From NCBI GenBank assembly GCA_964106645.2, contig OZ067038.1: a stretch of 64,000 nt of DNA; one strand, given 5' to 3'. The stretch's first letter is position 1. The number at the start of each line of letters is the position of its first letter. This document shows, one piece after another, positions 58,901-61,900 of the stretch. The DNA comes from Podarcis pityusensis. Its lineage: Eukaryota. Position numbers: made by a program.

Positions 58901-61900
58901 AGGAAGCAATCTGGACTTATGTCATTTAGGGCTTTGGAGGTAATTGCCAATGCTTTGAATTGTGCCAGGAAAGAAGTTGGTAATCAGTACAATGTGATCT
59001 CAGAGGTATGCACTCACCAGCGTCCTTGCAATTGCATACGGGACCATTTGAAGCTTCTCAAGACTTTTCAAATAAAGCCCCATGTACTGTGTGTTTAATT
59101 AATCCAACCTAGTTGTACCTAAGGCATGTTTTTTCATGCAAAGTTCTAGCCTCCTCAGAAATGAGCATAGCTGGTCAAATGCTCCTGGCTACATCCTCTA
59201 TCTGGTCTTCCATTTGTAAAACTGAGCCCCAAACACGCCCACACCAGATTGTAATTACTCCCAAACAAGCTGAAACACTATTCCAGAGACTGTCTCTTTC
59301 TTTAGCATTTTTAGATGGTACTTAATACATACCAGGATTAATAAAATGTTTTCAACATTTGAAATGCATGGTTTTCCCCTCAGATTGTTGGAAAGGGTAA
59401 TTGGAATTATTTCACAGATTTATGCACTTTAACTTAGTAATGAACCCTTTAACACCTTAAAATTCCTGGTATAAAATATTTGTTTTGGATATTAGGTGAA
59501 TACAGAAATGGCTTTTAAAGGGTCTGTATCTGGCAAAAAAAGGCTAAGGCATGTGTCTCTCAATCTATTTCCTATTGCTGTAACAAAATTATAATAATTA
59601 TAATTTATTTATACTGCCCTAGTCTCTGTCCTCCTATCCAGCAACACGAGAAAGGTTCTTGTCCATTGTCTCTGAAGTCAGCCTTAACTACGGGTCCTAT
59701 TTATGACTGAACACAGGCGGCTTTGATTGAGCTGAATAAGGAGTTAGTCTAACCAACGACCACTAATTTCGACTTAGTAAATTCTGACCACATCAGAACC
59801 CCTGACATGTCAACAGTCCTCTTTTTATTAAATACATCATTTCTGCTGAGCCTTTTAGGGTTATCCTTCCATTGAATCCACTTTATGTCCATCCTAATCT
59901 GTACTGAGGGTATAATATTAGCCCTGTACCTAATTATAGCCATATTTACCTCAATACCAACACTCCAACAATTGCTATTATACCAATTCTACTCCTAGCA
60001 ATATCCGCCTTTGAAGCTGCAACAGGCCTCACCCTTCTAGTCAGTTTTGTCTTCCATCTGGTAGGGGAAAACTAAGAAATGTCCAGTTTATGCCTTTTCC
60101 AGGCTTGAATATGTGGTTAGATTGCTCAATTGGTAGCACTTGATCTCAGGAGCCTTATACTAGGCAAAAAGATTTCTGTATTGCATGGAGTTAGACTAGA
60201 TGACCCTCATAGTCCCTTCCATCTTTGCAATTCTATGATCTGTGTACTGTTTTCTGCCTAAGTGCAGACTAATCAAACCTCAAAGATCCTCTCTTATGGA
60301 GGCTAATCTCATCCACACACACTTCCTAGTACTCAGATTTAAAATAAATAGTTTGAAGTGGACTTCTGTTTACCTTCAGCTGAAGCTAGTCAGGATCAGG
60401 TCCCAAGTACTCGTCAATTATTTTATTATTTGATACATCAACTAAATATTTGTGATTTGATTGTTAGCAGTTATTAGATGTGAAGAATAAAGAAAAGTGG
60501 GTTTAAAAATAAATGTAGTTCAAATCCATCCTGTTGAGCTTGTCTGAATGAGGCTGTGGATGGTTTTCTAAAGTCAGCAATTTTCATTAATGGCAGAACT
60601 TCGGCAATGCTTTTACAGCAGTCATTTGGGACCGTTTGTTAGTGACTATTACAACAATGGCTTAAATATATATAATATCTCTTAATCCTAAATACTAATC
60701 CTTGAGATACATTCAGCTGAGCTTTCAAATATAAGTTTATTAAATAGGGAAATGGAATCGAGGAAAAAAACATTAAGGTTGAGCTAGGAGCTGGTTTGTT
60801 TTAAATTTTCAAAGACCTGTGCATATTAAATGTTTATTTGGTGCGGGGGGGGGGGGGGCTGTTGACCAGTGGGACAAATATTCCTTGTGAAAGGATGCAA
60901 GTGTAAATATATGGTGACTGTGTTCTTTATTACATATATTGCTGTTAGTATTGCAGTATTTCCCTTCATATAGGAGGAAGACACTAAAGCAGGTTCAGGG
61001 AGCCTGTGGCTTTCCAGAAGCTGCTGGACTACAACTCCCATAATTCCTGAGCATTGGCCACACTTGACTGGGGCTGATGGAGGTTGCCTTCCACCCCACC
61101 AGCCCCAATGGGCACCTGCCACTGCCTAGGAGTAAGCCCCACTGAACCCAATTGGACTTACTTCTTAGTAGACATGTATAGGATTGCACTCTGTGCTGTG
61201 CCTATACCAGGCTTCCTCAACCTCGGCCCTCTAGATGTTTTTGGCCTACAACTCCCATGATCCCTAGCTAGCAGGACCAGTGGTCAGGGATGATGGGAAT
61301 TGTAGTCTCAAAACATCTGGAGGGTTGAGGTTGAGGAAGCCTGGTCTATACAAAGGACTATAACAGATTGCATCCGTATGTATGTAATCGTTTCCGTGTG
61401 CTGCGCTGGTGCTGGCTCGCCAGCTGCAGCTTCGTCATGCTGGCCACGTGACCCAGAAGTGTCTTCGGACGGCGCCAGCTCACGGCCTCTAGAGCGAGAT
61501 GAGCACGCAACCCTAGAGTCGGACACAACTGGCCCATACGGGCAGGGGTACCTTTACCTATGTATGTAATACTTACTATACACCTATAAAAAAAACTCTC
61601 AAGGTGTCATACAATGAAGTTGTGATGGACACAAGTAATTTTACTCTCAAAACCAGTTGCAAACATGTCACAGCATGCCACTGAGGGGTTGACTACATCA
61701 TAGTAGTAGCAAGATTTTAACAAGTCTTGACTTACCAGGAAAAGGTCTGCTGGAGAACACTGAGTGGCTTGTGAAGAAAAAAATGCATCTTCAACCATCA
61801 TCACAGCCATGGAGTAATCTTAATGATGAGCTCATACCAATGTTCAGTTGTGTTCCCTCCACTTGGATTCCAGATGTTTCCAACTTGGAGTGGTGACTTG

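What the first reader, a model, noticed from the sequence alone, without database searches (positions are those of the whole stretch)
59676..60044. Mitochondrial insertion (ND3 end, tRNA-Arg, ND4L) 3.3 kb upstream of the TMEM163 start, bounded by a 6-bp direct repeat
Seen: ~360 bp in vertebrate mtDNA gene order, invisible to the standard-code ORF track. It shows nuclear-type decay: two 1-nt deletions, TGA where ND4L normally has Arg (probably CGA>TGA by CpG deamination) and SAFEA for conserved SACEA. AGTCAG occurs at both junctions (59676-59681, 60039-60044). Inference: microhomology-assisted end joining at a staggered break beside open promoter chromatin. The copy is a fossil of an ancestral or introgressed mitochondrial lineage and could contaminate mtDNA PCR.
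Basis: partly seen in the sequence, partly recalled or inferred. Interest (0 to 1): 0.7.

Follow-up and report, generated by a model that had tools for sequence, protein, structure and literature searches.

The report
Old mitochondrial DNA fragment near TMEM163
A decayed piece of lizard mitochondrial DNA about 365 bases long lies in ordinary nuclear DNA 3.25 kb upstream of the TMEM163 gene of a wall lizard, and it is a common, non-functional kind of insertion.

Summary
Window 59682-60042 (edges ±8 nt on the 5' side and ±2 nt on the 3' side) is a NUMT, a nuclear copy of mitochondrial DNA. It carries codons 1-79 of ND4L. tblastn under code 2 gives two colinear matches with E 1e-15 to 1e-17. A mitochondrial-type tRNA-Arg(tcg) at 59738-59806 abuts the ND4L ATG. 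About 56 nt upstream read like the end of ND3, but no tool confirmed this part.

The host is a Podarcis. TMEM163 exon 1 lies on the minus strand with its ATG at 56422 and is 100% identical to Podarcis muralis TMEM163. The copy is of lacertid origin but old. It matches the P. muralis ND4L at only 56/79 residues and its best match is 59/79. It has one net missing base in ND4L and differs at 4 of 22 columns that are invariant in 58 squamates. Its place within Lacertidae is unresolved.

AGTCAG does flank it. Random placements show such a repeat in 1.6-8.7% of cases, and target duplications of 1-11 nt were found in 17 of 71 primate NUMTs. The proposed mechanism is therefore plausible, already known and unproven here. 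The sequence gives no support for "open promoter chromatin". This is an ordinary finding of low interest.

The parts
59676..59681 (+). 5' copy of the hexamer AGTCAG, at or just outside the 5' junction of the insert
   Evidence: It is not known whether its last bases are nuclear or mitochondrial. The 5' junction lies somewhere between 59676 and about 59684.
59682..59739 (+). Probable 3' end of ND3 (about 19 codons). It has one missing base in a G run near 59716-59717 and a TAA at 59737-59739 that overlaps the tRNA start by 2 nt.
   Evidence: Code-2 translations in two frames and its position directly upstream of tRNA-Arg. The likeness to the ND3 C-terminus is recalled, not tested. Pfam and PDB gave no relevant hit.
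59738..59806 (+). Mitochondrial-type tRNA-Arg, anticodon TCG, 69 nt, with the cloverleaf kept
   Evidence: ARAGORN -mtvert. Read in the ND4L frame, the stretch matches 12 of 24 residues of the upstream extension of an unnamed lacertid-like mitogenome ORF, P0035.
59807..60042 (+). ND4L pseudogene, codons 1-79 of 98. TGA stands for Arg at 59873-59875. A two-base remnant of one codon lies at about 59957-59958 (frame break between 59953 and 59962). Phe replaces the Cys of SACEA. The copy is truncated after Val79.
60039..60044 (+). 3' copy of AGTCAG. The first four bases fit ND4L codons 78-79. The last two stand where all 58 homologs have Ala.
56248..56422 (-). TMEM163 exon 1 (58 codons plus 1 nt), with the donor GTGAGT at 56247-56242. 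This is context, not part of the insert.
   Evidence: 100% identity to P. muralis TMEM163 over 58 aa; five colinear exon matches on the minus strand
55500..57000 (.). CpG island over the TMEM163 promoter and exon 1. This is context.
   Evidence: (GC 0.51-0.70, CpG observed/expected 0.77-0.97)

Best explanation
This is an ordinary, old and non-functional NUMT. A fragment of about 360-367 bp from a lacertid mitochondrial genome was captured into a nuclear double-strand break. It carries the last ~19 codons of ND3, the whole tRNA-Arg and ND4L codons 1-79. The break was sealed by non-homologous end joining in intergenic DNA 3.25 kb upstream of TMEM163, in the lineage leading to a Podarcis wall lizard. 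Since then the copy has drifted as neutral nuclear DNA.

Shown: mitochondrial origin, gene order for tRNA-Arg and ND4L, nuclear surroundings, decay, and distance from the host's present mtDNA.

Inferred: capture by end joining. The flanking AGTCAG may be a 6-nt target duplication from a staggered break, with up to 4 nt of microhomology to the 3' end of the mitochondrial fragment. I put this part at about even odds against coincidence.
For: - Similarity: tblastn under code 2 gives E 4e-17 to 3e-15 for four lacertid ND4L proteins, in two colinear HSPs with a frame change. Nothing else in 64 kb has E below 0.9. The Pfam PF00420 matches are colinear.
- tRNA: tRNA-Arg(tcg) ends one base before the ND4L ATG.
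- Composition: the insert has G 0.139 and C 0.263, against G 0.16-0.19 in the flanks. GC skew is -0.2 to -0.3 over 59550-60150.
- Nuclear context: five colinear TMEM163 exon matches lie on the minus strand, and exon 1 is 100% identical to P. muralis TMEM163.
- Not present-day mtDNA: 56/79 identity to P. muralis ND4L, where P. muralis and P. siculus share 71/79. There is one net missing base. The copy differs at 4 of 22 columns invariant in 58 squamates.
- Mechanism class: in primates 17 of 71 NUMT insertions carry target duplications of 1-11 nt, attributed to cohesive breaks filled in, and 84 fusion points show 1-7 bp of microhomology (passages of PMC2567098).
Against: - The ND3 part was never confirmed by a tool.
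- Each Pfam match is below the curated cutoff.
- The hexamer repeat turns up in 1.6% of random placements under the strictest definition and in 3.5-8.7% with realistic junction uncertainty. It was also noticed post hoc.
- No empty site, no reads and no mitogenome DNA could be examined. The junctions, the age and even the physical continuity of the assembly rest on this one sequence.
Confidence: 0.9

Rival explanations
1. The NUMT is real, but the AGTCAG at both ends is a coincidence. The fragment was joined blunt or with short microhomology, and no target duplication took place.
For: Among random 363-bp placements in the same window, 1.6% (tolerance 0) to 8.7% (tolerance 8/3 nt) have an exact direct repeat of at least 6 bp at both ends. 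The repeat does not extend beyond 6 bp. Part of the 3' copy is explained by ND4L codons 78-79. In primates 54 of 71 NUMTs have no target duplication.
Against: The frequency of AGTCAG in the window is ordinary, 15 per strand against 14-16 expected, so there is no local excess that would make coincidence more likely. Target duplications of up to 11 nt are a documented outcome.
Confidence: 0.45
2. The stretch is an assembly artefact: mitochondrial reads or a contaminant joined into a nuclear contig.
For: No read-level evidence is available here, so the junctions are unverified.
Against: The sequence is not present-day mtDNA. It has a frame-breaking missing base, a TGA at an invariant Arg, a Phe at an invariant Cys, and only 56/79 identity to the ND4L of the host genus. 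It is also only ~365 bp long and sits inside otherwise unique flanks.
Confidence: 0.02
3. The copy did not come straight from a mitochondrion at this site. It is a secondary copy of an older NUMT elsewhere in the nuclear genome, moved by segmental duplication or template switching or carried with a repeat.
For: Its large distance from every sampled lacertid mtDNA would also fit a copy of an old nuclear NUMT. A SINE-like repeat lies 125 bp downstream, at 60169-60239.
Against: Both flanks and the insert are unique within the 64-kb window. The mitochondrial homology ends sharply at both sides and no extra co-duplicated sequence is visible. The rest of the genome could not be searched.
Confidence: 0.06
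4. The likeness to mitochondrial genes is chance similarity in AT-rich, G-poor DNA.
For: ARAGORN in mitochondrial mode makes 13 calls in this window, so about 12 are background. The single Pfam matches are below cutoff.
Against: tblastn gives E 1e-15 to 1e-17 against a 64-kb database. There are 59/79 identical residues to a Darevskia ND4L. The tRNA has the right identity and the right position to the base.
Confidence: 0.005

Closest known systems
NUMTs captured by non-homologous end joining, as catalogued in human and chimpanzee (Hazkani-Covo and Covo 2008, PMC2567098; passages read)
   Same: A short mitochondrial fragment lies in unique nuclear DNA. The junction has a possible short target duplication (there 1-11 nt, in 17 of 71 cases) and possible microhomology (there 1-7 bp). 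There is no sign of a transposon mechanism.
   Different: That study verified each junction against an empty site in a sister genome and against the mitochondrial genome. Neither could be done here. This copy is also far older and more diverged than their species-specific set. The per-NUMT duplication lengths are in their Table S1, which I could not see.
Insertion-site preferences of mammalian NUMTs (Tsuji et al. 2012, PMC3467031; abstract read)
   Same: There is a retrotransposon-like repeat in the flank (SINE-like, 60169-60239) and an A+T-rich run 65-95 nt upstream of the junction (59581-59611). Both fit the tendencies named in that abstract.
   Different: Their open-chromatin link used experimental maps and none exist here. 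The local sequence is CpG-poor and lies outside the TMEM163 CpG island.
Large NUMT reported in Podarcis siculus (Podnar and co-workers, about 2007). This is recalled only. It was not found in the searchable library and was not read.
   Same: The same host genus, and a nuclear copy of mitochondrial DNA that differs from the host's own mtDNA.
   Different: As I recall, that case was a long section of the mitogenome and was interpreted as interspecific. This one is ~365 bp, its source within Lacertidae is unresolved, and nothing here shows interspecific origin.

Membership tests
NUMT (nuclear copy of mitochondrial DNA) | Significant sequence homology to mitochondrial genes | tested here: met
   ND4L: tblastn under code 2 gives E 4e-17 to 3e-15 for 4 lacertid queries and 4e-11 for an iguanian. 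Identity is 59/79 to Darevskia parvula. The PF00420 matches are colinear.
NUMT (nuclear copy of mitochondrial DNA) | Colinear with the mitochondrial gene order (ND3, tRNA-Arg, ND4L; the order is from general knowledge) | tested here: met
   tRNA-Arg(tcg) at 59738-59806 abuts the ND4L ATG at 59807. An unnamed lacertid-like mitogenome ORF (P0035) reads through the same upstream stretch, with 12/24 identical residues.
NUMT (nuclear copy of mitochondrial DNA) | The ND3 portion is homologous to ND3 | tested here: inconclusive
   Pieces of 20-30 residues gave no ND3 hit in Pfam or PDB. They are too short to score. The support is position, an in-frame TAA and a recalled C-terminal motif.
NUMT (nuclear copy of mitochondrial DNA) | Embedded in nuclear chromosomal sequence | tested here: met
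   Five colinear TMEM163 exon matches lie on the minus strand of the same window, with exon 1 100% identical to P. muralis. The flanks are unique. Physical continuity was not checked with reads.
NUMT (nuclear copy of mitochondrial DNA) | Distinct from the functional mitochondrial copy (disabling changes or divergence) | tested here: met
   There is one net missing base in ND4L (239 nt for 80 codons). Changes occur at 4 of 22 columns invariant in 58 squamates. Identity to P. muralis ND4L is 56/79.
NUMT (nuclear copy of mitochondrial DNA) | Orthologous empty site in a relative lacking the insert | not testable with these tools
NUMT junction with target-site duplication from a staggered break | The same short sequence directly flanks the insert on both sides | tested here: met
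   AGTCAG at 59676-59681 and 60039-60044, exactly 6 bp and not extendable.
NUMT junction with target-site duplication from a staggered break | The repeat is more than chance would give | tested here: inconclusive
   Of 20000 random placements per setting, 1.6% (tolerance 0), 3.5% (2/2), 4.8% (4/2) and 8.7% (8/3) show an exact repeat of at least 6 bp at both ends.
NUMT junction with target-site duplication from a staggered break | The duplicated sequence is nuclear and present once at the empty site | not testable with these tools
   This needs an orthologous empty site and the source mitogenome DNA, and neither was available. At protein level the last two bases of the 3' copy are non-mitochondrial and the first four fit ND4L.

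The most novel reading that the evidence does not exclude
The insert may predate the radiation of the Lacertini, or even of crown Lacertidae. In that case it would sit at the same site upstream of TMEM163 in Zootoca, Lacerta, Darevskia and others. It would then be a datable rare genomic change and a slowly evolving snapshot of an ancestral lacertid mitochondrial sequence, useful for the poorly resolved base of that radiation. A rarer variant is that it records a mitochondrial lineage since replaced by introgression in Podarcis. The evidence does not exclude either reading. The copy falls in the basal polytomy of Lacertidae. It is as far from P. muralis ND4L (56/79) as Gallotia is (56/79). It lacks four states fixed in Podarcis while sharing two.
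Probability: 0.3. Interest if true: 0.35.

Novelty: new member of a known kind. Interest (0 to 1): 0.15.

Why it matters
It matters little in itself. NUMTs are common, their capture by end joining is well described, and this copy is short, broken and outside any gene or CpG island.

It has two modest uses:
- As a presence/absence marker, if it is shared among lacertid genera.
- As a caution for mitogenome assembly or read mapping around ND3, tRNA-Arg and ND4L in Podarcis.

At roughly 25-30% amino-acid divergence from the living mtDNA, it is unlikely to be mistaken for the real copy.

Tried and rejected
- Standard tRNA and RNA scans. The bacterial-mode scan found 0 genes. Rfam at E<=1 found only a chance SCARNA7 match at 60475-60571, E 0.83. 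Mitochondrial tRNAs need the mitochondrial mode.
- TMEM163 location. I first looked for its start downstream at about 63.3 kb and found no matching ORF. The gene is on the minus strand with its ATG at 56422.
- ND3 tail.
  - Pfam at E<=1 and E<=10 gave no ND3 hit. The only hit was a chance HMBD match, E 0.061, in the non-mitochondrial part.
  - PDB at E<=10 gave 0 hits for both frames.
  - A search of the large protein set for the 25-residue piece was not run. My first attempt asked for an E-value limit above the tool's maximum. At the permitted limit a 13-residue match could not score, so I spent the last search on TMEM163 instead.
  - Literature searches for a printed ND3 C-terminal motif gave 0 papers or only noise: 85 papers held both terms, and the 8 listed were unrelated.
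- A possible second mitochondrial piece. 61366-61425 on the minus strand gives weak matches to ND4L aa 76-95, E 2.2-5.9 in 4 of 5 queries. I rejected it as chance because the stretch is GC-rich (G 0.33, C 0.33), the likeness covers about 13 residues, and neither side continues into ND4L.
- Surrogate empty site. I looked for other copies of the flanks within the window and found none, apart from a SINE-like segment at 60169-60239.
- Character counting to place the copy inside or outside Lacertini gave 3 columns one way and 2 the other, which is uninformative.
- The search of protein representatives, structure prediction, complex prediction and the atlas were not used, because none could bear on a pseudogene fragment.

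Full report
**What is there**

Reading 59400-60300 and translating it with the vertebrate mitochondrial code gives three adjoining mitochondrial features on the + strand.

*ND4L.*
- An ND4L reading frame runs from the ATG at 59807. It changes frame once and stops resembling ND4L after codon 79, at 60042.
- Pfam PF00420 matches the first half at profile positions 2-47 (E 1.5e-4) and the second half at 47-78 (E 0.02). The matches are colinear, but each is below the curated cutoff.
- tblastn of five ND4L proteins against the whole window under code 2 gives two colinear matches per query, frame 2 and then frame 1. The combined E is 4e-17 to 3e-15 for lacertids and 4e-11 for an iguanian. Every other hit in the 64 kb has E of 0.9 or worse.

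*tRNA-Arg.*
- Directly upstream, ARAGORN in mitochondrial mode finds tRNA-Arg(tcg) at 59738-59806 with a cloverleaf. It ends one base before the ATG.
- The default tRNA scan and Rfam see nothing there.
- ARAGORN's mitochondrial mode makes 13 calls in this window. The evidence is therefore the tRNA's identity and exact position, not the call itself.
- One hit, P0035, is an unnamed ORF from a 17.3-kb mitogenome-like contig and happens to read through its own tRNA-Arg. The window read the same way shares 12 of 24 residues with it.

*ND3 end.*
- Upstream of the tRNA, about 56 nt read in two frames as a hydrophobic stretch that ends like the ND3 C-terminus as I recall it. A TAA lies at 59737-59739, and one base is missing from a G run near 59716-59717.
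- This part has no tool support. The pieces are 20-30 residues long and gave nothing relevant in Pfam or PDB.

*Composition.* The insert has G 0.139 and C 0.263, and GC skew is -0.2 to -0.3. This fits the G-poor strand of vertebrate mtDNA.

**Where it is**

It is on the minus strand.
- An ORF opens at 56422 and meets a GTGAGT donor at 56247-56242.
- Its 58 residues are 100% identical to TMEM163 of Podarcis muralis and 97% identical to that of Zootoca vivipara (5 hits among 35 candidates).
- tblastn of those two named proteins against the window finds five colinear exon matches on the minus strand: aa 1-59, 62-99, 100-118, 112-153 and 143-176.
- I searched exon by exon only.
- The CpG island covers about 55500-57000. 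The insert lies about 2.7 kb beyond it, in CpG-poor (observed/expected 0.2-0.3) and AT-rich DNA.

**Origin and age**

*Panel.* The first ND4L half found Darevskia parvula (74% identity) and Podarcis siculus (59%) (3 hits among 4 candidates). Searching with the Darevskia protein gave 76 ND4L proteins. I kept 58 squamates (46 Lacertidae and 12 others). I dropped 18: fishes, amphibians, two further Plestiodon and one unnamed row.

*Identity.* In a script the copy was read through with X at the frame break. It shares 45-59 of 79 residues with lacertids and 36-45 of 79 with other squamates. The best match is 59/79 to D. parvula, and it shares 56/79 with P. muralis. For scale, P. muralis shares 71/79 with P. 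siculus and 56/79 with Gallotia.

*Decay.* The copy differs at 4 of the 22 columns that are invariant in all 58 sequences:
- Arg23 is now TGA.
- The Cys of SACEA is now Phe.
- Ala76 is now Thr.
- Ala80 is now Ser. This last one is more likely the junction than a substitution.

*Tree.* A maximum-likelihood tree puts the copy inside Lacertidae (support 100/99) but in the unresolved base, outside the well-supported Podarcis clade. The tool warns that there are few columns and that the copy's composition is odd.

*Tests.*
- The AU test does not reject a clade of the copy with Podarcis (p 0.46).
- It rejects a clade with P. muralis alone only weakly (p 0.088, log-likelihood 14.3 lower).
- Character counts are mixed.

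*Conclusion.* The copy is lacertid and not a recent copy of the host's mtDNA. Its age is otherwise open. Nucleotide comparison was impossible because no vertebrate mitogenome or genome DNA was on hand.

**The junctions**

- AGTCAG stands at 59676-59681 and 60039-60044, and the repeat cannot be extended.
- Its frequency in the window is ordinary: 15 per strand against 14-16 expected.
- Among 20000 random 363-bp placements per setting, an exact direct repeat of at least 6 bp at both ends occurs in 1.6% with no tolerance and in 3.5-8.7% with the junction uncertainty that applies here.
- At the 3' end, A GTC fits the third base of Leu78 plus Val79. AG falls where all 58 homologs have Ala. At most 4 nt of that copy can be mitochondrial.
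- At the 5' end the junction cannot be placed better than 59676-59684.
- Hazkani-Covo and Covo (PMC2567098, passages read) found target duplications of 1-11 nt in 17 of 71 primate NUMT insertions. They attributed these to cohesive breaks filled in around the fragment. They also found microhomology of 1-7 bp at 84 fusion points.
It can only be settled here with an empty site. Their per-case table is a supplement that I could not see, so I do not know how often duplications reach 6 nt.

**Other claims**

- 'Open promoter chromatin' has no support in the sequence. Tsuji et al. (PMC3467031, abstract read) report that human NUMTs favour open chromatin, A+T oligomers and retrotransposon-rich flanks. 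Here there is an A+T run at 59581-59611 and a SINE-like repeat at 60169-60239, but there are no chromatin data.
- A recent Podarcis paper proposes using NUMTs to identify pre-introgression mitotypes (PMC13599021, two passages read). That is the kind of use this copy could have if it proved informative.
- Searches for NUMT with Lacertidae or Podarcis each listed 12 papers. From their titles and abstract starts, none catalogues lacertid NUMTs.

**Rivals**

- An assembly artefact is very unlikely, because the sequence is not present-day mtDNA.
- A secondary copy of an older NUMT elsewhere cannot be excluded, since only this window could be searched.
- Chance similarity is excluded.
- A weak ND4L-like match at 61366-61425 on the minus strand is GC-rich and does not extend, so I take it for chance.

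**Verdict**

The object is an ordinary, old, broken NUMT: a new member of a known kind, of low interest.

**What stayed unchecked**

- Read support for the junctions.
- Orthologous sites in other lacertids.
- Nucleotide-level comparison with mitogenomes.
- The ND3 end.
- The rest of the host genome.
- The closed metagenome and viral collections, which would not have borne on this in any case.

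Noticed in passing
window 60169-60239: A SINE-like interspersed repeat lies 125 bp downstream of the insert. It has weak copies (72-77% identity over 52-71 nt) at 21328-21392, 27165-27216 and 30877-30941. It resembles the widespread reptile and bird repeat core as I recall it.
   Followed up: partly
window 61366-61425, minus strand: A stretch of about 13 residues resembles ND4L aa 80-92 under code 2, E 2.2-5.9 in 4 of 5 queries. It is GC-rich and does not extend either way. 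I take it for chance.
   Followed up: yes
window 63300-63620: A GC-rich block (GC 0.64 in 63300-63599) with only moderate CpG observed/expected (0.39-0.47). No ORF there resembles TMEM163 or anything else I recognised. Its nature is unknown.
   Followed up: partly
window about 55900-55980, minus strand (TMEM163 intron 1): The read-through ORF past the exon 1 donor contains a run translated as alternating Ser-Leu, which indicates a CT/AG dinucleotide microsatellite just inside intron 1.
   Followed up: no
window 58000-58750: A small patch with raised CpG observed/expected (0.60-0.80) at GC 0.47-0.48 lies between the TMEM163 CpG island and the insert. ARAGORN's mitochondrial mode also makes a presumably false 'tRNA-Gln' call at 58469-58540.
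   Followed up: no
whole window: ARAGORN in vertebrate-mitochondrial mode makes 13 tRNA calls in 64 kb of nuclear DNA, and only one lies in the NUMT. This is a useful background rate for anyone using that mode to screen nuclear sequence.
   Followed up: yes
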